The notes under the pieces were generated by a model. It had not been told where the DNA came from. It saw nothing but the letters and a program-made list of their open reading frames with translations, and did no database searches. From positions 1 through 10,276 of the forward strand of contig JBJMMA010000011.1 of assembly GCA_045805065.1 (NCBI GenBank): a stretch of 10,276 bases of DNA, in the 5' to 3' direction. Source of the stretch: Bdellovibrionia bacterium. GTDB taxonomy: Bacteria > Bdellovibrionota > UBA1018. This document shows, in pieces, positions 475 through 10,276 of the stretch. The position numbers and the translations under genes are program-made. Positions within the stretch are counted from its first letter, which is position 1; every line of letters starts with the position of its first letter.

Positions 475-1960
475 ATCTCACCCCGGCGCGCACGCGGTCA
501 TTGGCCTGATAGCGACCGATGAAATCGTTGGGCGTTTCGTTGCTGCCTGCTCCGCCTTTCGGGTCCTGGCTTCCGAGCACGTCGGCACCCAGCCCGATCT
601 CCCAGCGCGTGGAAGGAAGATATTTGAAATCCATGGAGAGAATCGATCCGTGATTTTTCGTATCGTAAAGAAGACTCGATGCCACGACAACGGTTCCCGA
701 ATTATGAATGCCAATGGTAGAGAGCAGGCCAGGCATCTCAAGCTCGCCGCCGGCCTTCAAGGCGCTCTGATAGGGATAGCGGGATTCGAAAACCGATTGC
801 CCGCCCAGAAGCGCGTTTCCATCGCCCGAAACGTCAGGGCCGTTTCCACCATCCTGATAAAGATAGCTCAACGCAGCTTTCATCTGATTCTCTTTTTGGT
901 CCGTGATGTGGAACTGCAAAGTCGGGCTGATCGAGATGGCGCGAGTCACCGTCTGCTCGGTCCAGGTTCTCGTGAGCTCCGGGCCGTAATCATGTCCCGG
1001 GCGATCAATGAGTGAAGAAATCCATCCTGAAACGATCTCATGATTGAAGCCTGCTTCAGCGGAAATCAGGTGGTGGTACACCACGCGAGGCGCAACCGGC
1101 ACGTCAGCAACGTCCACGGTGGAGCGATTGCCATCCACAACCAGCTGACCTTGATACGAGAGAAGAAGCTGGTTCATGGGCTTGTAAGCATAACCGCCGG
1201 CGATCCACGGGCCCATCTTGTCGCCAATGCGAACCATCGCGGATCCAGCCGGATGAAGCAAAAGCTTGCTCATGGACGGGATCTGCAGATCGTATTTCAG
1301 CGGAGTGTCGCGGTCCATGACCTGGATTTTTCTTGGAGGCGAAATGAACCACGGCGAATCCGAGATCAACTGCCCATTATCGTTACTGATGGGAACGCCC
1401 CGCTCAGGAATCGAAATCGGAGTGCCGAAAATCACAGCTTTGAAGAGCGGGCGCTCCACTTCAACCGTAATTCCTGTAAGCGCGACGGTATCCGGGCGAA
1501 GATAATCCCAGCGATAGCGCGGCTGCCAGATCCCCAGACGCCACTCTTCATCGAGATGGTTCCAATCCTCGAGCTTTCGTCCGAGCGAAATCTTTGCAAC
1601 CTCAATCTTGGAGGAGGTCGAAATATAGCCTTCCGGCATCTCAATATAGGCTTGAGTCGAGTCCTGCTTGGAGAGCGGCGCCATGGCGATGGCCTCAAGC
1701 CCTGCTCGCATCTCCACCCAGCTGCCTTCAAGATGCGCATAAGGCCGAGCAATCAAAGTCGAATACACGTCCTCGGTCTTGGTTCGAGGAGAATAAAGAT
1801 AGCCTGCAGCTTCAGCGGAGAGCGTTCCACCCCAATCAAACGCCTTGCGGGGAGCGAGCGAGATCTCGCCTAAGTCCTGATTGGAGAGTTCCGCTGTCCA
1901 GGCGGAGTGCGCTAATAGGAGAAAGCCCGCGCCCAGAGCGGCGCTGGAAAGCTTCTTCAA
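464..1960 (-). CDS. Exported protein, probable outer-membrane beta-barrel
   Basis: 498-aa ORF with a signal peptide (KKLSSAALGAGFLLLAHSAWTA), many amphipathic aromatic-rich strands and a BAM-type C-terminal beta-signal (RVRAGVRYVF). The start is TTG at 1960 or possibly CTG at 1987. Confidence 0.75.
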   Translation of the reverse strand: MKKLSSAALGAGFLLLAHSAWTAELSNQDLGEISLAPRKAFDWGGTLSAEAAGYLYSPRTKTEDVYSTLIARPYAHLEGSWVEMRAGLEAIAMAPLSKQDSTQAYIEMPEGYISTSSKIEVAKISLGRKLEDWNHLDEEWRLGIWQPRYRWDYLRPDTVALTGITVEVERPLFKAVIFGTPISIPERGVPISNDNGQLISDSPWFISPPRKIQVMDRDTPLKYDLQIPSMSKLLLHPAGSAMVRIGDKMGPWIAGGYAYKPMNQLLLSYQGQLVVDGNRSTVDVADVPVAPRVVYHHLISAEAGFNHEIVSGWISSLIDRPGHDYGPELTRTWTEQTVTRAISISPTLQFHITDQKENQMKAALSYLYQDGGNGPDVSGDGNALLGGQSVFESRYPYQSALKAGGELEMPGLLSTIGIHNSGTVVVASSLLYDTKNHGSILSMDFKYLPSTRWEIGLGADVLGSQDPKGGAGSNETPNDFIGRYQANDRVRAGVRYVF

Positions 1961-3134: not shown

Positions 3135-3809
3135 ATGCCTGTCACGCACTTTCCTGACCCGCGTCGTGCTCCAAAGGATGGTCTTTTGGCCGTAGGGGGT
3201 GATTTGCATCCTAAAAGTCTCCTCCTTGCCTATTCCCAAGGCATTTTTCCATGGCCAGTCCATGATCCTGACGAACCCGAGCCGATCCTTGCCTGGTTTT
3301 GCCCCAACCCACGGGCCATTCTGAGATTTTCAGACATTCACATCCCGGAAAGCTTGGCCAGAGCCCAACGAAAAGCCCAAAGCGCATGGCGCTTCAGCGT
3401 TGATGAGGCGTTTGAGAAAGTGATCCTCGCCTGCTCGCAAGTTCCCCGTCCCGGCCAGGATGGAACTTGGATCACGCCTGAGATGATCGATGCCTACATC
3501 GAGTTTCATCGCCTGGGTTACGCCCATAGCGTGGAAGTTTGGGAAGGCGCCGAGCTCGTGGGTGGAATTTATGGAGTGGATGCCGGAGGCGCGTTTGCGG
3601 GCGAGAGCATGTTTTATCGTAAGCCCAACGCCTCAAAGCTCGCGCTCCTCTACCTGATTGAGCACCTAAAAAAAGGCGGAGCCAGCTGGATCGATATCCA
3701 AATGCTGACTCCGCACATGAAGGCATTAGGCGCCGTTGAGATTAAGCGCGATGATTTCCTGAATGAACTGTCACGGACTCGCGCTCTCGGCCTTCGCCTT
3801 TTTCATTAA
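3135..3809 (+). CDS. aat: Leucyl/phenylalanyl-tRNA--protein transferase
   Basis: Hallmark motifs GLLAVGGDL, LLLAYSQGIFPW, WFCPNPRA, GTWITPEM, AHSVEVW, LVGGIYGV, FAGESMF, NASKLAL and IDIQMLTPHM..LGA. Confidence 0.97.
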   Translation: MPVTHFPDPRRAPKDGLLAVGGDLHPKSLLLAYSQGIFPWPVHDPDEPEPILAWFCPNPRAILRFSDIHIPESLARAQRKAQSAWRFSVDEAFEKVILACSQVPRPGQDGTWITPEMIDAYIEFHRLGYAHSVEVWEGAELVGGIYGVDAGGAFAGESMFYRKPNASKLALLYLIEHLKKGGASWIDIQMLTPHMKALGAVEIKRDDFLNELSRTRALGLRLFH

Positions 3810-6396
3810 CTGATGGAGCCTTCGATTTGATTTCAAAGGCGACGTCGTCATTCTTGATCACGATCGTCACATCACCACCGTTTTCAAGCTTGCCGAAGAG
3901 GATTTCCTCAGCCAGTGGCTTCTTGATCTTATCCTGAATGAGACGAGCCAATGGGCGCGCCCCCATCTGCTTGTCATAGCCCTTGCGTGCAAGCCATTCG
4001 CGAGCATCTGCCTCCAGGTGTACATCGACACCCTTGGCAAGAAGCTGTGACTCAAGCTCGACGATCTGCTTGCCGACCACCTGGCCCACCGTCATGATAT
4101 CGAGTGGGTTGAAGTAGACGATCGCATCCAGACGGTTTCTGAACTCTGGCGAGAAGGTTTGCTCCACGGCCTTCTGAGCGGCGGCACCCTTCGCTTCCTT
4201 GGCATCCGGTGGAACCAGGCCCAGGCTTCGCTTCTCAAGCTCTCGAGATCCGACGTTTGACGTCAGGATGATGATCGAGTTCCTGAAATCCGCCTTGCGA
4301 CCGTTGTTATCGGTCAAGGTTCCATGGTCCATCACCTGAAGCAGGATATTCCAGATATCGCCATGAGCCTTCTCAATTTCGTCGAGAAGGATGATCGAGT
4401 GCGGATTCTTGATCACGGCATCCGTGAGAAGACCTGCTTGCTCAAATCCCACATAGCCCGGAGGCGCTCCGATGAGTCGCGAGACGGTGTGCTTTTCACT
4501 GTACTCGGACATATCAAAGCGAAGGAATGGAACTCCCATGCAGTGTGCGAGTTGCTTGCTGAGCTCCGTCTTACCGACACCGGTTGGACCGCAGAACAAG
4601 AAGCATCCCACAGGGCGCTCACCTGTTCTCAGTCCCGACCTTGCCAGACGGATGGAGGTCACCAATGCATCGACCGCATGATCTTGTCCAAAGATCGTGA
4701 GTTTCAAATCACGCTCAAGATTTTTGAGACGCGTCTTCTGGCTCACGCTCACGGAGCGTGCCGGAATGCGCGCGATCTGAGCAATGACTTCCTCAATCGC
4801 CTCACTATCCAGAGTTGGCTTTTGAGCCGCAGGCTCAAGCGCTGCTCCCTTTTTGGCCGAAGCAATGCTTGCAACGCTTGCGGAAGCATTTCCAGCCGCG
4901 ACCTTGAGCCTTGCCTTGGCACCCGCCTCATCGATCACGTCAATTGCCTTGTCTGGCAAGAAACGATCGGTGAGATGCTTGGATGAGAGCTCAACGGCAG
5001 AGCGAATCGACTCAGGCGTATATTTCACGCCGTGATGCTCTTCGAACTTGAGCTTGAGTCCGTTGAGAATCTGAATCGCTTCTTCCTGCGTAGGCTCTGG
5101 CACATCGATCTTCTGGAACCTGCGTGCAAGCGCATGATCCTTTTCAAAGACGCTGCGATATTCGGCATAGGTGGTTGAACCGATGCAACGAAGCTCGCCT
5201 TGCGAGAGCACAGGCTTCAAGAGGTTTGCCGCATCGAGCGCACCTCCACTCACCGAGCCCGCACCCACAATGGTGTGGATCTCATCAATGAGCAGGATCG
5301 GAAGGAAGCCTTTGTCGCGCTTTCTTTCGATCGAGTGAATGACCTTTTTCAAGCGTTGCTCGAAATCGCCGCGGAACTTGGCGCCCGCAAGGAGCGATCC
5401 CAGGTCCAGGGCGTAGACAATCGCGTTCTCCAGAAGATCCGGCACATTGCCTTCAACGATCCGCAGAGCCAGTCCTTCAGCCAGTGCCGTTTTACCGACA
5501 CCTGCTTCGCCGACCAGAAGCGGATTGTTTTTCCGTCTGCGGCAAAGCGTCTGGATCATTCGCTCAAGCTCGTTCTGACGACCCACGAGTGGGTCAATCT
5601 TTCCGATTCTTGCGCGCTCATTGAGATTGACGGTGTACTGAGAAAGCGCGTCGTCTCCGACGGTTTTTCCTCCGTGACGAGTGTCACGACCCATTCCACG
5701 ATCTTCGCGCTCTTTATCCATATCGCTCCCGAATGGCCCCATATGTGATCCCGAATGATCCCCTGAGTGATCTGAAGAATCATCGCTCTCGTCATCTGAG
5801 CCACTTCCTGAGCCCATTCCGCTGGACGCGTCGGTGAAGTCGCCCAGCGTAGGCTCGTCGCGATCGCGTCGATCCGAGCGAATGCCATGGCTAACGAAAT
5901 TGAGGACATCAAGTCTTTCAATTCCCTGCTTTGTCAGGCTGTAAAGAGCGTGTGAGTCTTTTGCCTGAAACATTGCGACAAAAAGGTCTGTTGGCTGGAT
6001 TTCGTCCTTGCCTGCTGATTGAACCTGAAACAACGCACGCTGGATGAGCCGCTGAATGCTGAGCGTTGCAACCGGATGTTCGAGCCGTCCCTCGTCTTCT
6101 GAACCATTACTGGACGGATCGCTATTCGAGGAGTCAGGCGAATTAGGATCACCTGAGCCATCTGTTGAGAGACGATCGGATGCAGGCGCTGCCTTTGGAA
6201 TTTCCGTCCGCAGGTAAAGCTCCAGCTCGTTTCTGAGTTTTTCCGCATCGCCCCCACAGGCTTGCACCGTTTCAATAATGCTCTTTTCCGAGAGCAGGCT
6301 CCAGAGAACGTGTTCCAGGGTAAAATATTCGTGTTCGTATTCGACTGCGAAGCGAACTGCCCGATTGAGCACCGCCTCTGCTTTGCGACCGATCAT
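3742..6396 (-). CDS. clpA: ATP-dependent Clp protease ATP-binding subunit ClpA
   Basis: Clp N-domain (HEYFTLEHVL), two AAA+ modules (GEAGVGKT, IDEIH; GPTGVGKT, LDEIEK), RFDMSEY, PPGYVG and the ClpP-docking loop SLGL. There is no ClpB/ClpC middle coiled coil. It lies downstream of clpS and has SD GGGGAGG. Confidence 0.96.
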   Translation of the reverse strand: MIGRKAEAVLNRAVRFAVEYEHEYFTLEHVLWSLLSEKSIIETVQACGGDAEKLRNELELYLRTEIPKAAPASDRLSTDGSGDPNSPDSSNSDPSSNGSEDEGRLEHPVATLSIQRLIQRALFQVQSAGKDEIQPTDLFVAMFQAKDSHALYSLTKQGIERLDVLNFVSHGIRSDRRDRDEPTLGDFTDASSGMGSGSGSDDESDDSSDHSGDHSGSHMGPFGSDMDKEREDRGMGRDTRHGGKTVGDDALSQYTVNLNERARIGKIDPLVGRQNELERMIQTLCRRRKNNPLLVGEAGVGKTALAEGLALRIVEGNVPDLLENAIVYALDLGSLLAGAKFRGDFEQRLKKVIHSIERKRDKGFLPILLIDEIHTIVGAGSVSGGALDAANLLKPVLSQGELRCIGSTTYAEYRSVFEKDHALARRFQKIDVPEPTQEEAIQILNGLKLKFEEHHGVKYTPESIRSAVELSSKHLTDRFLPDKAIDVIDEAGAKARLKVAAGNASASVASIASAKKGAALEPAAQKPTLDSEAIEEVIAQIARIPARSVSVSQKTRLKNLERDLKLTIFGQDHAVDALVTSIRLARSGLRTGERPVGCFLFCGPTGVGKTELSKQLAHCMGVPFLRFDMSEYSEKHTVSRLIGAPPGYVGFEQAGLLTDAVIKNPHSIILLDEIEKAHGDIWNILLQVMDHGTLTDNNGRKADFRNSIIILTSNVGSRELEKRSLGLVPPDAKEAKGAAAQKAVEQTFSPEFRNRLDAIVYFNPLDIMTVGQVVGKQIVELESQLLAKGVDVHLEADAREWLARKGYDKQMGARPLARLIQDKIKKPLAEEILFGKLENGGDVTIVIKNDDVAFEIKSKAPSVNEKGEGRERESVTVHSGNHRA

Positions 6397-6553: not shown

Positions 6554-6913
6554 TCACTTGAGAGGCTCGATCACACAATGGAGCGGATAGCCGCGGGACT
6601 TTGCAAGCTGTAGAACCTGAAACACCTTGGTTTCTGCAATATCATGGCTGTATACGCCTGCTACGCCCCGGCCTTCCTGATGAACGCGAAGCATTATTTG
6701 CATCGCCTCTTCTCCAGTTTTTTTGAAGAAGCGTTGCAGAACTTCGACTACGAACTCCATCGTGGTGTAGTCGTCATTCAATAACACGACCGCGAACTTC
6801 GGAGGTTGCTGCAACTCGTCTCGAACATCATCTTCGAGTGCGACGTCGATGCCCCCAGATCCCTCTTCAGAATTCGGCGAATTTGCCGACTCAGACGAAT
6901 GGGACGATGCCAT
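6554..6913 (-). CDS. clpS: ATP-dependent Clp protease adaptor ClpS
   Basis: [23 protein letters not shown]...[21 protein letters not shown]...GYPL. The likely start is ATG at 6913 (119 aa), not 7072, because a promoter-like element lies at 6960-6933. Confidence 0.96.
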
Positions 6914-6932
6914 ATTCCAGATACTTCCTCTA

Positions 6933-6960
6933 ATACTACGCCTAATACGCCCCGTATCAA
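6933..6960 (-). promoter_or_regulatory. Putative sigma70 promoter of clpS(-clpA)
   Basis: Minus strand TTGATA (6960-6955), 16-nt spacer, TAGTAT (6938-6933), ending 19 nt before the clpS ATG. Confidence 0.5.
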
Positions 6961-7149
6961 AACCTGTATCTCGACCGAGTCCATTTGGACGATGCGGCAG
7001 GTTCGAGGAATGACTGGACTGGACCGAGCCACCTTGTTGGGATCTATTCCGCCTATAAGGCCTGTGTATCATAATTTCATATTAGATGAATAGTTCATGA
7101 AGACCACGATTTTTGTAAGAGCTGTGTAATCGCTTGCTGACTCAGATTA

Positions 7150-7227: not shown

Positions 7228-7791
7228 ATGAGTGAAACCAATTCAGGCGGAAACACCAGCGGCGCAAACTCTCTCCGACGTCAGTTGGAGATGACCCGTT
7301 TTGACCGTGCCATGGAAGTTGCGGAGAGCTTGGCAGATCATCGGGCGCTTCTGACGACTGCCGAGCTTGCTCGCATGAACAATATCCTGACTGGTAAACC
7401 ACAGGACTCGAGCGAAGAGCCATGGCGAGAAAAGCCAGTGACCGTCACACTTCCCTCAGGTCGCACGGAGACTCTTGCGCTGATCGCTGATCCGAAAATC
7501 ACCGCACGCGAAAAGCTTCATCATGCGACAGAGCTTGGCGAGAACGGCGCCGTCATCGACGCTGCTGTCGACATTTACGCTGCCCTGGTTCTTTCGCACG
7601 TCTTTGAAGACGCAAACCGCAGAACCGCAGCCCTTGCCGCTCATTACTTCTTGCGCCGCTATGGCGCGCCGATCTCAGGCCTTGCGCTCCATGAACTGGG
7701 CCTGGGCGACTTGCGCGAAGAAGGACAAATCGAGTCCCTTCGCGAAACCGTCACTCAGATGGCAAAGTTTGCCAGTAAAGCCAAAAAATAA
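7228..7791 (+). CDS. Fic/Doc family protein with a Doc-like active-site motif
   Basis: 187 aa with HVFEDANRRTA, matching the Fic/Doc signature HxFx(D/E)(G/A)N(G/K)R. It is preceded by the typical AAVDIYAALVLS helix. Confidence 0.9.
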   Translation: MSETNSGGNTSGANSLRRQLEMTRFDRAMEVAESLADHRALLTTAELARMNNILTGKPQDSSEEPWREKPVTVTLPSGRTETLALIADPKITAREKLHHATELGENGAVIDAAVDIYAALVLSHVFEDANRRTAALAAHYFLRRYGAPISGLALHELGLGDLREEGQIESLRETVTQMAKFASKAKK

Positions 7792-7848: not shown

Positions 7849-9534
7849 TTATTCGTGCGTAAGTTTCTTGTACTTCACGCGCGTAGGCTTGAGAGCCTCA
7901 GCGCCCAGACGCTTCTTCTTATCTTCTTCGTACTCTTGGAAGTTGCCTTCAAACAACACAACGCGCGAATCCCCTTCGAACGCCATGATGTGCGTGCAGA
8001 TACGATCGAGGAACCAGCGATCATGGCTGATGATCATCGCGCAACCCGCAAAGGTTGTGAGCGCATCTTCCAGCGCACGAAGCGTGTTCACATCCAGGTC
8101 ATTGGTCGGTTCGTCGAGAAGAAGAACGTTTCCACCGGACTTGAGCATCTTGGCCAGGTGAACACGATTGCGTTCACCGCCTGAGAGCGATCCAACTTTT
8201 TTCTGCTGGTCTGAGCCCGTGAAGTTAAAGCGCGCGCAATAAGCACGCGATTGGACTTCGCGGTTACCCAGCATGATCGTTTCGTTCTTACCGTCAGAGA
8301 TTTCTTCCCAGACGGATTTCTCAGGATCCAGCGCGTCACGGTTCTGATCCACATAAGCAAGCTTCACGGTATCGCCCACACGAAGCGTTCCGGAATCCGG
8401 CTTTTCCTGGCCCGTGATCATTCGGAAGAGCGTCGTCTTACCCGCGCCGTTACCGCCGATAATGCCGACAATTGAGCCCGCAGGAATCATGAACGAGAGA
8501 TCATCCATGAGAAGCTTGTCGCCGAAAGCTTTCTTCACGTCCTTGGCTTCGATGACCAGGTTTCCAAGGCGAGGGCCTGATGGAATATAGATTTCCATCT
8601 CCTCAACTCTTTCCGGACGATCTTCAGCCAGAAGTTTTTCGTAAGCCGAGACGCGCGCCTTGCTCTTGGCCTGACGAGCCCGTGGGCTCATGCGAATCCA
8701 CTCCAGCTCACGCTCAAGAGTCTTCTGACGCTTGGTCTCGGTCTTCTCTTCCTGAGCCAGGCGATTCTGCTTTTGCTCCAGCCAAGACGAGTAATTTCCT
8801 TCCCAAGGAATTCCGTGACCGCGATCGAGTTCCAGGATCCAGCCCGCGATATTATCGAGAAAGTAGCGATCATGGGTGACCGCCACAACGGTGCCCTGGT
8901 AATTTTTCAGGAACTGTTCAAGCCACCAAACAGATTCAGCGTCGAGATGATTGGTCGGTTCGTCCAAAAGCAGGATGTCCGGCTTTTGAAGAAGCAGACG
9001 GCAGAGCGCCACGCGGCGCTTTTCACCACCGGAAAGCTTGCTGACGTCCGCTTCAGGCGGCGGGCAGCGAAGTGCTTCCATGGCGATATCGAGCGTACGA
9101 TCAATTTCCCAGCCGTTCGCATGTTCGATCTTCTCCTGAAGCTCGCCTTGCTCGCCGAGAAGCTTTTCCATTTTGTCTGGATCCAGATCCGGATCCGCAA
9201 AGGAGTTCGTAATCTCTTCGTAGCGCTTGAGCCACTTCACGAGATCGCCCATTCCGGATGCGACGTTATCGCGCACGTTGAGCTTTGGATCGAGCTGCGG
9301 CTCTTGTTGTAAGTAGCCAACCGTGATGCCGTCGCCTGGACGAGCATCGCCGTTAAAATTTTTCTCGACGCCTGCCATGATTTTCAAAAGCGTCGACTTA
9401 CCCGCGCCGTTCAGACCGAGAACGCCGATCTTCGCGCCGTAAAAGAATGAAAGATAGATATCCCGAAGGACCTGCTTATTCGGTGGATAGGTCTTACCCA
9501 CCCCCTGCATAGAGAACGCAAACTTTTGTGCCAT
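7849..9534 (-). CDS. ettA: Energy-dependent translational throttle protein EttA (ABC-F)
   Basis: [99 protein letters not shown]. The true start is the ATG at 9534 (MAQKFAFSM, 561 aa). The ORF-track extension to 9630 runs into the palindromic element. Confidence 0.96.
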
Positions 9535-9573
9535 AGGCTTATCTTTCTGACACATTCCGTCTTTGATTACCAG

Positions 9574-9806
9574 AAGGTGGTCGCCTACTTTTGGTAGCGA
9601 CACCGCGTCATAATTGCCGCACGTGAGCAAATCAAAAAGGAACTAAGCGTTGAGCTAAAAGCCCTCGTTGCGACTTCCTGTCGCATTCCCGTTCGGCATC
9701 CTGCCTGGGAACGACTCGGTTTTTAGCTCAACGCTTAGTTCCTTTTTGATTTGTTCAATTGCCGCGCTTTGACGCACATGCGCTACCAAAAGTAGGCGAC
9801 CACCTT
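9574..9806. mobile_element. 233-bp nested palindromic element (MITE/REPIN-like or structured RNA)
   Basis: Perfect 26-bp terminal inverted repeat (9574-9599 / 9781-9806), a 6-bp stem (9605-9610 / 9770-9775), a 40-bp inner inverted repeat with 2 G.T wobbles (9624-9663 / 9718-9757), and apical hairpins GCGAC-TTCCT-GTCGC and GGCA-TCC-TGCC. The structure is certain; mobility is inferred. Confidence 0.65.
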
Positions 9807-9859
9807 AATGAAAGCTCTTTCACTTGAGTTCATACGAACAACCGATTAGAAATGACTTT

Positions 9860-10276
9860 ATGCGCCGAACTTTACTTGCTCGTTTGCTTGTTTCTGTAGC
9901 CGCATTCACGACCTCGATGAACGGATCACTTCCAGGCATAGCCAGCTTAGGAGGTAGTTCCGCAAATGCGGCAGCCCTGACTCCCGCCAACTTTCCTGAT
10001 CTGGTCGAAAAAGTCCTGCCAGGTGTCGTCAACGTCAGCTCGACCACTGTCTCCATCCAACCCGTTTATGGAATGGACGAATTCATGCGCTTTTGGGGCA
10101 TCCCTCAGGAGCGTAAGCAGACTTCGCTGGGCTCAGGATTTCTCATCAATAAAGATGGTTTCCTAATCACGAACAATCACGTCGTCAGAGACGCAAAAGA
10201 AGTCATCGTCACGCTTTATGATAAACGCCAATTCAAGGCGAAGCTCGTTGGATCCGACCAAAAAACGGATTTAGCG
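9860..10276 (+). CDS. htrA: HtrA/DegP (Do family) periplasmic serine protease, 3'-truncated
   Basis: Not in the ORF track; translated manually as MRRTLLARLLVSVAAF...FPDLVEKVLPGVVNVSS...SLGSGFLINKDGFLITNNHVVRDAKEVIVTLYDKRQFKAKLVGSDQKTDLA. It contains the catalytic His (TNNHVV) and Asp (TDLA) motifs. Confidence 0.93.
   Translation, partial: MRRTLLARLLVSVAAFTTSMNGSLPGIASLGGSSANAAALTPANFPDLVEKVLPGVVNVSSTTVSIQPVYGMDEFMRFWGIPQERKQTSLGSGFLINKDGFLITNNHVVRDAKEVIVTLYDKRQFKAKLVGSDQKTDLA

What the first reader, a model, noticed from the sequence alone, without database searches (positions are those of the whole stretch)
9574..9806. 233-nt rod-like fold-back element with two-fold symmetric internal loops and plus-strand wobble bias
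Seen: nearly the whole ettA-htrA divergent spacer folds into one rod. In order, there is a 26-bp perfect stem, a 5x5 loop (ACACC/ACATG), a 6-bp stem, a 13x12 loop, a 40-bp stem and a branched cap. The large internal loop carries the same 9-mer AATTGCCGC on both arms (9612-9620 and 9757-9765) as a direct repeat. This gives a two-fold symmetric bubble that a simple inverted duplication would not produce. Both mismatches of the 40-bp stem (G9627.T9754, G9661.T9720) and one in the cap (TTCCCG/TGGGAA) are G.T on the plus strand, which points to selection on a single-stranded plus-sense RNA or ssDNA. The two cap hairpins share a TCC(T) loop. Inference: either a non-autonomous element mobilised as ssDNA by an HUH (RAYT/TnpA-like) dimer, or an undescribed structured RNA with a symmetric protein-binding bubble.
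Basis: partly seen in the sequence, partly recalled or inferred. Interest (0 to 1): 0.75.

Follow-up and report, generated by a model that had tools for sequence, protein, structure and literature searches.

The report
REPIN-like hairpin repeat with nested core
The 233-base rod is one of about fifteen copies of a small hairpin-shaped mobile repeat of a Bdellovibrio-like soil bacterium; its ends match the sequences flanking a tyrosine transposase gene elsewhere in the genome, and it carries a second, still unexplained hairpin repeat inside it.

Summary
It is not a single copy. The genome holds 15 full-length copies (69-81% identity), 41 copies of the 26-nt end and 35-37 copies of the central cap.

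The 26-nt ends are REP-like. The same sequence, inverted, flanks a RAYT-type HUH/Y1 transposase gene on contig C111. Related RAYT genes in other Bdellovibrionales MAGs carry matching flanks.

Between the REPs lies a separate repeat family: twin hairpins with CATCCTG loops on top of a long stem. The arms of that stem differ widely between copies yet stay complementary, even through a mirrored indel. This inner family also occurs without REPs and in other families of the order. What copies it, and what it does, is unknown.

The AATTGCCGC "symmetric bubble" is peculiar to this one copy (1 of 15). The plus-strand wobble bias is weak. No Rfam family matches.

Earlier notes of this scan describe similar capped hairpin repeats in other Bdellovibrio-like genomes.

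The parts
9574..9599 (+). Left REP-like end. It is a 26-nt core whose weak local hairpin is followed by GTAG. In most other copies the inverted repeat extends outward as (T)AACCAA; this copy has ACCAG.
   Evidence: Perfect 26-bp pairing with 9781-9806. The genome holds 41 matches to this 26-mer at up to 5 mismatches. The same sequence flanks the RAYT gene on C111. Outward extension of the repeat is seen. The local DNA hairpin is only -7.7 kcal/mol.
9600..9623 (+). Left inner part of the REP and spacer. It holds the conserved GCGTCA (9605-9610) and the copy-specific 9-mer AATTGCCGC (9612-9620).
   Evidence: GCGTCAT is near-invariant in alignment A1 and also lies beside the REP hairpins that flank relatives' RAYT genes. 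The 9-mer repeat occurs in 1 of 15 copies only.
9624..9663 (+). Left arm of the inner 40-bp stem. Base (GAGCAAATCA) and top (TAAAAG) are semi-conserved; the middle is hypervariable.
   Evidence: Helix. In the variable stem, mean between-copy identity is 0.62 while mean within-copy Watson-Crick complementarity is 0.93. Of the 31 pairs of this helix, 21 show changes on both sides.
9664..9717 (+). Cap: a three-way junction with two hairpins whose loops read (A/T)TCCT, closed by C-G. This gives CATCCTG on the plus strand and CAGGATG on the minus strand.
   Evidence: nhmmer finds 37 caps in the own genome. The covariance model R1 finds 35 in the own genome and 10 in the same-genus genome, and hits 15 of 75 family genomes in all and 20 of 127 in the class. 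The hairpin stems covary. As DNA the cap folds with z -4.5 on the plus strand and -3.5 on the minus strand.
9718..9757 (+). Right arm of the inner 40-bp stem.
   Evidence: Pairs with 9624-9663, with G.T wobbles at 9720 and 9754.
9758..9780 (+). Right spacer and inner part of the REP. It holds the second AATTGCCGC (9757-9765) and TGACGC (9770-9775).
9781..9806 (-). Right REP-like end, the inverted copy of 9574-9599.
   Evidence: Zero mismatches to the 26-mer on the minus strand. The junction with the htrA side is covered by independent contigs of public soil runs (records 8 and 11).
7849..9534 (-). Flanking gene: EttA-like ABC-F ATPase. Its start codon lies 39 nt from the element.
   Evidence: Pfam ABC_tran (two stretches) and ABC_tran_Xtn. 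The G001 orthologue keeps the sequence up to about 15 nt before a REP singlet at the same place.
9860..10276 (+). Flanking gene: HtrA-like serine protease, N-terminal part, running off the window.
   Evidence: Pfam Trypsin_2. The conserved upstream stretch shared with G001 starts right after the element's end, near 9810.

Best explanation
The 233-nt rod is a non-autonomous, REPIN-like mobile repeat. It consists of two inverted REP-type ends plus an internal spacer.

Its cognate enzyme is most likely the RAYT-type HUH/Y1 tyrosine transposase encoded on contig C111, whose gene is flanked by the same REPs. By analogy with TnpA-REP and the IS200/IS605 family, the enzyme would act on the folded single strand at the REP hairpins and would leave no target duplication. 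This mechanistic step is inferred, not shown.

The spacer is unusual. It is itself a copy of a second repeat family: a conserved three-way cap with twin CATCCTG-loop hairpins on a long, hypervariable, perfectly paired stem. That family also lives on its own in this genome and in related Bdellovibrionales.

The composite was formed once and then spread as a unit. The copies are old: orthologous, partly deleted copies exist in the sister species.

The perfect arms are best explained by copying of one arm from the other, through hairpin-templated repair or template switching in the folded strand. Selection for a rod may add to this. Substitutions and also indels are mirrored between the arms.
For: Shown:
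(1) Copy number. The genome holds 15 full-length copies at 69-81% identity on 14 contigs and 41 REP 26-mers.
(2) The RAYT locus. C111:8332-9187 carries a 218-aa ORF flanked by this REP: twice on one side as a plain 119-bp doublet, and once inverted on the other side.
(3) The protein. It matches NCBIfam NF047646, REP-associated tyrosine transposase, at E 3.4e-18. Its only PDB relative is 4ER8, TnpArep, with the HUH and Y-x-x-NPVK motifs aligned.
(4) Flanking 16-mer. The most abundant 16-mer beside this gene occurs 22 times in the genome. For two paralogous RAYTs the figures are 3-9, and each paralogue has its own REP variant of the same architecture.
(5) Relatives. The closest RAYT homologues (37-65% identity) lie in Bdellovibrionales/Bdellovibrionota MAGs. 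REP hairpins next to GCGTCAT flank the gene on both sides, inverted, in 3 of these 5 loci, and on one side in 2.
(6) Co-occurrence. Of 24 same-family relatives searched with both queries, 5 of the 6 with REP-like hits also have the RAYT clade, against 4 of the 18 without.
(7) No consistent target-site duplication: 0-3 nt in 13 copies, and none at all in 8.
(8) Covariation. 94.6% of cells pair against 84.8+-0.6 in shuffles. 33 pairs show double changes against 18.1+-2.5, reached by 0 of 500 shuffles. Slid controls pair at 36-46%.
(9) A 5-nt insertion in the C72 copy is mirrored exactly in both arms.
(10) Location. All copies lie between genes. Of 34 caps, 13 sit between convergent genes, 14 between co-directional genes, 2 between divergent genes and 5 at contig ends. 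Many abut a stop codon within 6 nt.
(11) Orthologous sites. In same-genus G001 the C148 site holds the same REP doublet with its centre deleted. The ettA site holds a REP singlet.

From the literature (passages read): REPINs are inverted REP doublets with a spacer that form hairpins in ssDNA or mRNA, and compensatory changes in them are common (PMC3116915). RAYT genes are flanked by REPs, or by highly abundant 16-mers (PMC3686654 and PMC5581495).
Against: - No transposition, excision or empty-site allele was seen. Contigs from 4 soil runs show no joint across the element.
- No two copies are near-identical (best 81%), so there is no sign of recent activity.
- The RAYT scores below the curated cut-offs: 65.9 bits against 80 for NCBIfam, and 17.5 against 23 for Pfam.
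- The canonical REP layout is GT[A/G]G on the 5' side of a stable palindrome. Here GTAG lies on the 3' side of the main hairpin, and as single-stranded DNA the local REP hairpins are weak: -3.6 to -8.3 kcal/mol, z -0.4 to -2.3.
- The same-genus genome G001 has REPs and caps but no RAYT hit at E<=1e-10. It is 95% complete in 490 contigs.
- The inner module occurs without REPs: about 12 copies here have no REP within 100 nt. It also occurs in 6 of 15 cap-positive genomes that lack this RAYT clade. RAYT therefore does not explain that layer.
Confidence: 0.72

Rival explanations
1. The conserved part is a structured RNA (or a structured single-stranded DNA site) with a function of its own, and the REP ends are secondary. 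The twin cap hairpins would present CAUCCUG loops on the plus strand. On the minus strand they would present CAGGAUG loops of the GGA type bound by CsrA/RsmA. The long stem would serve as a scaffold or as an RNase III substrate in the 3' UTRs of neighbouring genes.
For: - The cap is conserved with covarying hairpin stems across genera and families: 15 of 75 family genomes, 20 of 127 in the class, with alignments.
- The loop letters C, T, C, C are invariant in 34 own copies.
- There is an excess of G.T over A.C on the plus strand in own copies: 56 against 32 in the arms, and 54 against 15 in the 15 composites, of which 15 G.T come from one invariant pair.
- A csrA gene is present in the genome.
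- The minus-strand loops match the CsrB repeat consensus as I recall it. This was not checked against any call.
- Most copies lie just downstream of genes, so read-through transcripts would contain them.
Against: - There are 35 or more copies per genome, in both orientations relative to neighbouring genes: 10 in the same sense and 4 opposite in co-directional settings.
- The scan of this copy finds no promoter-like site, and its two terminator-like sites lie at the left REP and inside the cap, not beyond the element's end.
- No Rfam family reaches its threshold. The best is TwoAYGGAY at 24.9 bits against a gathering score of 43.
- Mirrored indels and arm lengths that vary from 33 to over 100 bp point to DNA-level arm copying.
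- Folding energies give no consistent strand: plus is better in 15 of 34 own copies and in 2 of 21 relatives.
- The variable arms match nothing else in the genome: 0 of 75 BLAST hits lie outside elements. A guide-like role therefore has no target here.
Confidence: 0.15
2. It is an ordinary MITE left by a DDE-type insertion sequence. The 26-31-bp terminal inverted repeats would be transposase binding sites, and the hairpin would be a by-product.
For: The terminal inverted repeats are long, perfect and conserved. The size of about 230 bp and the intergenic location fit a MITE.
Against: There is no consistent direct target-site duplication. The only gene found bounded by these ends is an HUH/Y1 RAYT-type gene, not a DDE transposase. 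Related RAYT genes in other genera carry homologous flanks.
Confidence: 0.05
3. It is a one-off inverted duplication, or chance palindrome, in the ettA-htrA spacer.
For: None beyond the perfect arms of this copy.
Against: The genome holds 15 full-length and many partial copies. Copies also occur in relatives.
Confidence: 0.01

Closest known systems
REPIN-RAYT systems (REP doublets forming hairpins, Pseudomonas fluorescens SBW25; E. coli REP/BIME with TnpA-REP, PDB 4ER8)
   Same: - Two inverted, conserved ends separated by a spacer, folding into a hairpin.
- Compensatory changes in the stem.
- Extragenic location.
- A tyrosine HUH transposase gene flanked by the same ends.
- A flanking 16-mer that is highly repeated in the genome.
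- No target duplication.
- Copies kept at orthologous sites in a sister species.

   Different: - The host is a Bdellovibrionales MAG. My searches of the held library found no paper on REPs, REPINs or MITEs in Bdellovibrio.
- The element is 233 nt. In SBW25 GI REPINs the two invariant 16-mers start 71 bp apart.
- GTAG lies on the 3' side of the main REP hairpin, and a conserved GCGTCAT box follows it.
- The spacer is a copy of another repeat family with a three-way cap.
- Copies are diverged (69-81% identity), not a cloud around a master sequence.
IS200/IS605-family ssDNA transposons and their miniature derivatives
   Same: An HUH/Y1 enzyme, recognition of subterminal hairpins on one strand, and no target-site duplication. 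These family properties are established knowledge that I recall. Pfam Y1_Tnp gives a weak hit.
   Different: The ends here are symmetric inverted repeats, whereas IS200/IS605 elements have distinct left and right ends. The protein is nearer to RAYT than to IS200 TnpA. No TnpB gene was looked for or seen next to it.
Correia/NEMIS, ERIC and BOX-type hairpin repeats
   Same: They are abundant intergenic repeats of 100-250 bp that fold into long hairpins in transcripts. These properties are recalled, not checked in a call.
   Different: Those families are linked to DDE-type transposition or have no known enzyme. None has the twin CATCCTG-loop cap, and there is no sequence or Rfam match.
Rfam RF01731 TwoAYGGAY RNA
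   Same: Two neighbouring hairpins with purine-rich GGA-containing loops, when the minus strand is read. This is the best Rfam match.
   Different: The score of 24.9 bits is below the gathering score of 43, with E 0.17. The loops read AGGAU rather than AYGGAY. The element is embedded in a long palindrome and is multi-copy.

Membership tests
REPIN / REP-RAYT system | The REP ends flank a RAYT gene as inverted repeats | tested here: met
   On C111, the REP stands at L043 1036-1061 (+), 1773-1798 (+) and 1866-1891 (-), around the ORF at 1114-1767 (-). Among relatives' loci, L033/L045, L044 and L047 show inverted flanks, L048 a divergent pair, and L046 one side only.
REPIN / REP-RAYT system | The enzyme is a RAYT: an HUH motif and a catalytic Tyr in a Y1 fold, nearer to TnpA-REP than to IS200 TnpA | tested here: met
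   NF047646 REP_Tyr_transpos matches at E 3.4e-18 with 65.9 bits, below the equivalog cut-off of 80. The only PDB hit is 4ER8 TnpArep at E 2.5e-6, with HfH and YvYrNPVK aligned to HmH and YiYiNPVK. Pfam Y1_Tnp gives only 17.5 bits.
REPIN / REP-RAYT system | The REP is a conserved GT[A/G]G tetranucleotide on the 5' side of a palindrome (definition read in PMC3686654) | tested here: inconclusive
   By my reading of the list, GT[A/G]G is present in 37 of 41 REP hits. However, it lies on the 3' side of the roughly 10-bp AAAAGG..CCTTTT hairpin and on the 5' side of only a 3-4-bp CGCAnnTGCG mini-palindrome. The local hairpins are weak as ssDNA.
REPIN / REP-RAYT system | Two REPs in inverted orientation, with a spacer, form a hairpin (a REPIN) | tested here: met
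   The 15 full-length doublets fold at -91 to -155 kcal/mol. A plain 119-bp doublet lies next to the RAYT gene.
REPIN / REP-RAYT system | The most abundant 16-mer flanking the RAYT gene is highly repeated in the genome | tested here: met
   It occurs 22 times. The paper gives about 5 for random genomes of 6.7 Mb (PMC5581495 passage).
REPIN / REP-RAYT system | Extragenic location, with compensatory changes in the hairpin | tested here: met
   All 34 caps lie between the long ORFs of a rough ORF call, although 4 are overlapped by a doubtful ORF. 33 of 81 pairs show changes on both sides, reached by 0 of 500 shuffles.
REPIN / REP-RAYT system | Mobilisation by the RAYT (excision or transposition intermediates, or insertion polymorphism) | not testable with these tools
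   No RNA or raw-read run was available. Contigs of 4 soil runs show no joint that skips the element.
DDE-transposase MITE | Direct target-site duplication of fixed length at both ends | tested here: not met
   Across 13 copies, 0-3 nt are shared, with none at all in 8 and no constant length.
Rfam TwoAYGGAY RNA (RF01731) | Score at or above the family's gathering threshold | tested here: not met
   24.9 bits against 43, E 0.17, on the minus strand.
CsrB/Rsm-type CsrA-binding RNA | GGA motifs in the loops of short hairpins on a transcribed RNA, in an organism that has CsrA | tested here: inconclusive
   The minus-strand loops read CAGGAUG and CAGGAAG (from the sequence). A csrA gene is present at 90.9 bits. 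Transcription and strand are unknown. The orientation relative to neighbouring genes does not favour the minus strand: 4 of 14.

The most novel reading that the evidence does not exclude
The inner module is a class of element in its own right, a "palindrome-apex" repeat. Its twin CATCCTG/CAGGATG-loop hairpins would be the recognition site of an unidentified single-strand-specific protein: a transposase or nickase other than this RAYT, or CsrA on the minus-strand RNA. Its arms would be regenerated by fold-back copying each time it moves. That would explain arms of any sequence and any length, from 33 to over 100 bp, that are always exact mirrors. On this reading the REPIN here merely captured one such element and now carries it around.
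Probability: 0.2. Interest if true: 0.7.

Novelty: new variant of a known kind. Interest (0 to 1): 0.45.

Why it matters
REPIN-RAYT systems have been studied almost entirely in Pseudomonas, enterobacteria and Stenotrophomonas. This finding places one in predatory-type Bdellovibrionales, with a different REP layout and three paralogous RAYT/REP pairs in a single genome.

It also shows one structured repeat family riding inside another. The inner family has mirrored substitutions and mirrored indels and a cap conserved across families. That makes it a clean natural case for asking how long DNA palindromes are kept perfect: by selection on a folded strand, or by copying of one arm from the other.

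In practical terms:
- These repeats break assemblies; several contigs end inside them.
- They sit within 6 nt of many stop codons.
- In this window, one fills the whole regulatory gap between ettA and htrA.
- In the sister species, gene order changes exactly at the REP.

Tried and rejected
- **Exact-pattern scan of genome contigs for the 25-nt REP:** 0 matches. The REP varies between species, so this says little.
- **RNA evidence:** no RNA holder is listed for the window stretch.
- **Contigs of 4 soil DNA runs laid on 9000-10276:** short pieces that stop at the repeat borders. There was no joint across the element, and one opposite-strand joint at 9656/9770 in a single contig. This is neither evidence for nor against mobility.
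- **Guide-like role of the variable arms:** 40-nt left arms of the modules were compared by BLAST with the whole genome. 0 of 75 hits lie outside elements.
- **Loose cap pattern scanned in viral contigs and metagenome contigs:** Only 1 of the 239 stored loci passed a twin-hairpin filter (L167, a viral contig, with no enclosing long stem). The hits are mostly chance, and no statement on range or phage carriage can be made.
- **Strand choice from folding energy:** no plus-strand preference. The measure is confounded by loop-energy terms.
  - At the C148 site, G001 keeps the base of the left arm and most of the right arm. This fits a central deletion of a full composite better than an empty site.
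  - At the C170 site, G001 keeps 18 nt of one arm base.
  - At the C134 site, synteny is lost.
  - The idea is not settled.
- **Promoter scan of 9450-9900:** no sigma-70-like site.
- **Sequence look-up in earlier findings:** no look-alike window.
Full report
**1. Observation**

Window 9574-9806 folds into a single rod. As RNA the energy is -155.2 kcal/mol, z -20.15, and 0 of 200 dinucleotide shuffles fold as well. As DNA it is -96.2 kcal/mol, z -18.6.

- a perfect 26-bp helix, 9574-9599 with 9781-9806;
- a small internal loop;
- a 6-bp helix, 9605-9610 with 9770-9775;
- a large internal loop;
- a 40-bp helix, 9624-9663 with 9718-9757;
- a branched cap with two hairpins.

The wobbles G9627.T9754, G9661.T9720 and G9691.T9706 are there, plus T9615.G9766. 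The 9-mer AATTGCCGC stands on both sides of the large loop.

**2. It is a repeat family, not a one-off**

A BLAST search of the whole assembly (4.22 Mb, 262 contigs, 51.7% G+C) finds 15 full-length copies of 230-240 nt at 69-81% identity, on 14 contigs, plus many partial matches. Each full copy folds into the same rod, at -91 to -155 kcal/mol.

The 26-nt end occurs 41 times at up to 5 mismatches. In most copies the inverted repeat runs a few bases further out, as (T)AACCAA|AAGG...CCTT|TTGG(TTA). The window copy is slightly degenerate there.

Several contigs end inside a copy, so the count is a lower bound.

**3. The ends are REPs of a RAYT**

A search of the genome with Pfam Y1_Tnp gives 7 places. 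One of them, C111:8410-9063 on the minus strand, lies between copies of the 26-mer:
- one copy downstream;
- one directly before the start codon;
- one inverted copy 70 nt further on, so that a plain 119-bp REP doublet sits upstream of the gene.

The 218-aa product matches NCBIfam NF047646, REP-associated tyrosine transposase, at E 3.4e-18. Its 65.9 bits are under the equivalog cut-off of 80. Its only relative among solved structures is 4ER8, E. coli TnpArep, with the HUH motif and the Y-x-x-NPVK tyrosine motif aligned.

The most abundant 16-mer beside the gene occurs 22 times in the genome. This is the signature used to tell RAYTs from other genes (PMC5581495, passages).

Two paralogues, on C34 (61% identity) and C152 (55%), carry their own REP variants of the same design: an A-rich hairpin AAAGG..CCTTT, then 8-12 nt, then a TGACGC box. 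Their flanking 16-mers occur 3-9 times.

The nearest homologues in the species-level genome collection (37-65% identity) are all labelled Bdellovibrionales or Bdellovibrionota, which gives the taxon. REP hairpins next to GCGTCAT flank 3 of these 5 genes on both sides, inverted, and 2 of them on one side.

Among the 24 same-family genomes searched with both queries, 5 of the 6 with REP-like BLAST hits have this RAYT clade, against 4 of the 18 without. Kin are not independent, and the REP query detects only variants close to this genome's.

There is no regular target-site duplication. That fits an HUH/Y1 enzyme and argues against a DDE-type MITE.

**4. Comparison with the definition of REPINs**

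Passages of PMC3116915 define REPINs as REP doublets in inverted orientation whose spacer lets them form hairpins in ssDNA or mRNA, with common compensatory changes. PMC3686654 defines a REP as GT[A/G]G on the 5' side of a palindrome and identifies cognate REPs as inverted repeats on both sides of the rayt gene.

Features met here:
- doublets;
- hairpin;
- flanking of the gene;
- 16-mer abundance;
- extragenic position;
- compensatory change.

One feature is only half met. By my reading, GT[A/G]G is present in 37 of 41 ends. But it follows the main hairpin instead of preceding it, and what follows it is only a 3-4-bp mini-palindrome before the conserved GCGTCAT. As ssDNA the local hairpins are weak. 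I therefore file the element as a variant of the kind, not as a textbook member.

**5. A second family sits inside**

An alignment of the 15 copies (A1) shows four zones:
- conserved ends;
- variable internal loops;
- a stem with a semi-conserved base (GAGCAAATCA) and top (TAAAAG) and a hypervariable middle;
- a conserved 70-nt cap.

A profile of the cap finds 37 places in the genome. A covariance model of the cap plus 20 bp of stem (R1) finds 35.

About half of them are not inside a REP doublet. Some keep one REP or a decayed one (C60:42582, C60:75424, C134:1248, C237, C262). About a dozen have no REP within 100 nt (C10:11033, three on C51, C60:40550, three on C134, two on C170, C171, two on C247). 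Their stems are 33-48 bp, perfectly paired, and differ almost completely between copies. The two C247 copies share nothing with the rest but the cap.

The model also hits:
- 10 places in the same-genus genome G001;
- 1-4 places in 13 other genomes of the family, making 15 of 75 with a match including the own genome;
- 20 of 127 genomes of the class at E<=1e-5, in five families.

The alignments show the twin C-ATCCT-G loops kept while the hairpin stems change. In some relatives the palindrome around the cap runs to more than 100 bp per arm and is itself layered.

Of the 15 cap-positive genomes, 9 have the RAYT clade and 6 do not. So the inner family is wider than, and separable from, the REP/RAYT layer. 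What copies it is unknown.

**6. Covariation and how the arms stay perfect**

On A1 with the RNAalifold structure:

| Measure | Observed | Shuffles |
|---|---|---|
| Cells that pair | 94.6% | 84.8+-0.6% |
| Pairs with changes on both sides (of 81) | 33 | 18.1+-2.5 |
| Covariation score | 0.299 | 0.111 |

None of 500 shuffles reaches any of the observed values. Sliding the partner by 1-3 columns drops pairing to 36-46%.

In the variable stem, the left arms of different copies are 62% identical on average, while the arms within a copy are 93% Watson-Crick. The two low values are alignment shifts.

Indels are mirrored as well as substitutions. The C72 copy has five extra bases in the left arm and their exact complement in the right arm. 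Stem length varies freely among the solo copies.

Independent mutation plus selection can explain paired substitutions, but hardly exact mirrored insertions. I therefore infer that one arm is copied from the other, by repair or template switching in the folded strand, possibly in the single-stranded transposition intermediate. Template-switch correction of quasi-palindromes is established knowledge that I recall; I did not check it in a paper.

The 5x5 and 13x12 loops, which are too large for mismatch repair, stay unpaired and vary between copies.

**7.

*The symmetric bubble.* The direct 9-mer is significant within this copy (0 of 500 shuffles). But only this 1 of 15 copies has it. The others share 3-6 nt between the two loop sides, as shuffles do. 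It is a local peculiarity.

*The plus-strand wobble bias.*
- In the arms of 29 modules there are 56 G.T against 32 A.C.
- In the 15 composites there are 54 against 15, of which 15 G.T come from one invariant pair at the junction.
- The copies are related, so these are not independent events.
- RNA folding energies show no preference: plus is more stable in 15 of 34 own modules and in 2 of 21 matches in relatives. That measure is itself confounded by loop terms.

The bias is at best a weak hint for the plus strand.

**8. Context and age**

With a rough ORF call, the 34 caps lie as follows:
- 13 between convergent genes;
- 14 between co-directional genes;
- 2 between divergent genes;
- 5 at contig ends.

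At 12 or more ends the composite starts or stops within 6 nt of a stop codon. The window copy is one of the two divergent cases. It leaves 39 nt before the ettA start and 53 nt before the htrA start, and the scan finds no sigma-70-like promoter in 9450-9900.

In the same-genus genome G001:
- The ettA upstream region is conserved up to about 15 nt before a REP singlet at the same position. Beyond the REP the neighbour is a different gene. The htrA upstream region, conserved from about window 9810, has no element.
- At the orthologous C148 site, the same two flanking genes (74-75% identity) enclose a REP doublet. Its centre lacks the cap, but it keeps the base of the left arm and 18 nt of the right arm, so it is a deletion derivative of a full composite.

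The composite therefore predates the split of the two species. This agrees with the long vertical persistence described for REPINs (abstracts listed).

No copy pair is closer than 81% identity, so there is no sign of recent spread.

**9. Other checks**

- Rfam: only sub-threshold matches, TwoAYGGAY at 24.9 bits against 43 on the minus strand and Bacillaceae-1 at 15.6 against 35.
- A csrA gene is present. The minus-strand loops read CAGGAUG and CAGGAAG, which I recall as the CsrB repeat motif. In co-directional settings, however, only 4 of 14 modules would put the minus strand into the upstream gene's transcript.
- The variable arms have no other match in the genome.
- No RNA run holds the stretch.
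- Contigs of four soil runs confirm both junctions of the element with its flanks but show no empty site.
- Pattern scans of viral and metagenome contigs were dominated by chance hits.

**10. Literature and earlier notes**

Full-text searches for Bdellovibrio together with "repetitive extragenic palindromic", "REPIN" or "miniature inverted-repeat" returned 2, 3 and 1 papers. By title and abstract none is about such repeats in this group. The library lacks most subscription journals.

Earlier AI notes of this scan describe capped hairpin repeats with co-varying arms in other Bdellovibrio-like genomes, and name REPINs as the closest known kind. One of them reports a REPIN-like palindrome with a single-copy RAYT. 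A sequence look-up found no stored window that resembles this cap, so identity with those families is unproven.

What this window adds:
- a direct physical link of such a capped hairpin to a REP doublet and its RAYT in one genome;
- the mirrored indel;
- orthologous decayed copies in a sister species.

**11. Verdict**

The finding is real and is explained in the main. It is a REPIN-like non-autonomous element of a RAYT system (confidence about 0.7), a new variant of a known kind in an unstudied phylum.

The unexplained part is the nested cap-and-stem family: what copies it, what its invariant twin loops bind, and how its arms stay perfect.

Noticed in passing
Own genome, contigs C34:40743-41396 (-) and C152:10083-10733 (+): Two further RAYT paralogues (61% and 55% identical to the C111 protein). 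Each is flanked by its own REP variant of the same hairpin-plus-TGACGC design, with flanking 16-mers repeated 5 and 9 times. Four more weak Y1_Tnp hits lie on C251, C243, C226 and C143.
   Followed up: partly
window 9559-9573, compared with G001:C123 (L124): Gene order differs between the two species of the genus exactly at the REP upstream of ettA. G001 has a REP singlet there, followed by a different neighbour, and its htrA lies on another contig behind an unrelated gene.
   Followed up: partly
Own genome C134:1016-1339 and 5629-5974, C170:18393-18782, C247:13760-14090, C51:10277-10963: Solo cap modules often come in convergent pairs (a plus-oriented copy followed by a minus-oriented one), with starts 210-570 nt apart, in the gap between two genes.
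   Followed up: no
L106 and L120 (G018), L111 (G002), L112 (G023): In other genera the cap sits at the apex of much longer, layered palindromes, with arms over 100 bp and fold energies of -145 to -174 kcal/mol for about 290 nt. Two G018 copies share an outer arm module that is unrelated to the REP of this genome.
   Followed up: partly
L167 (viral contig of IMG/VR), about 140-190: This is the only one of 239 pattern hits with two proper CATCCTG-loop hairpins. It has no enclosing long stem, and an unrelated hairpin lies just upstream. It may be chance.
   Followed up: no
window 7228-7791 (+), 6554-7072 (-), 3742-6396 (-): A Fic/DOC-family gene (weak Pfam hit, 26.9 bits) lies next to a ClpS-ClpA pair. 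They are ordinary neighbours of the finding.
   Followed up: no
window 7849-9630 (-): The mechanical ORF of the ettA-like gene runs 96 nt upstream of the conserved ATG (9534) into the left REP. A gene caller could therefore over-extend the gene into the repeat.
   Followed up: no
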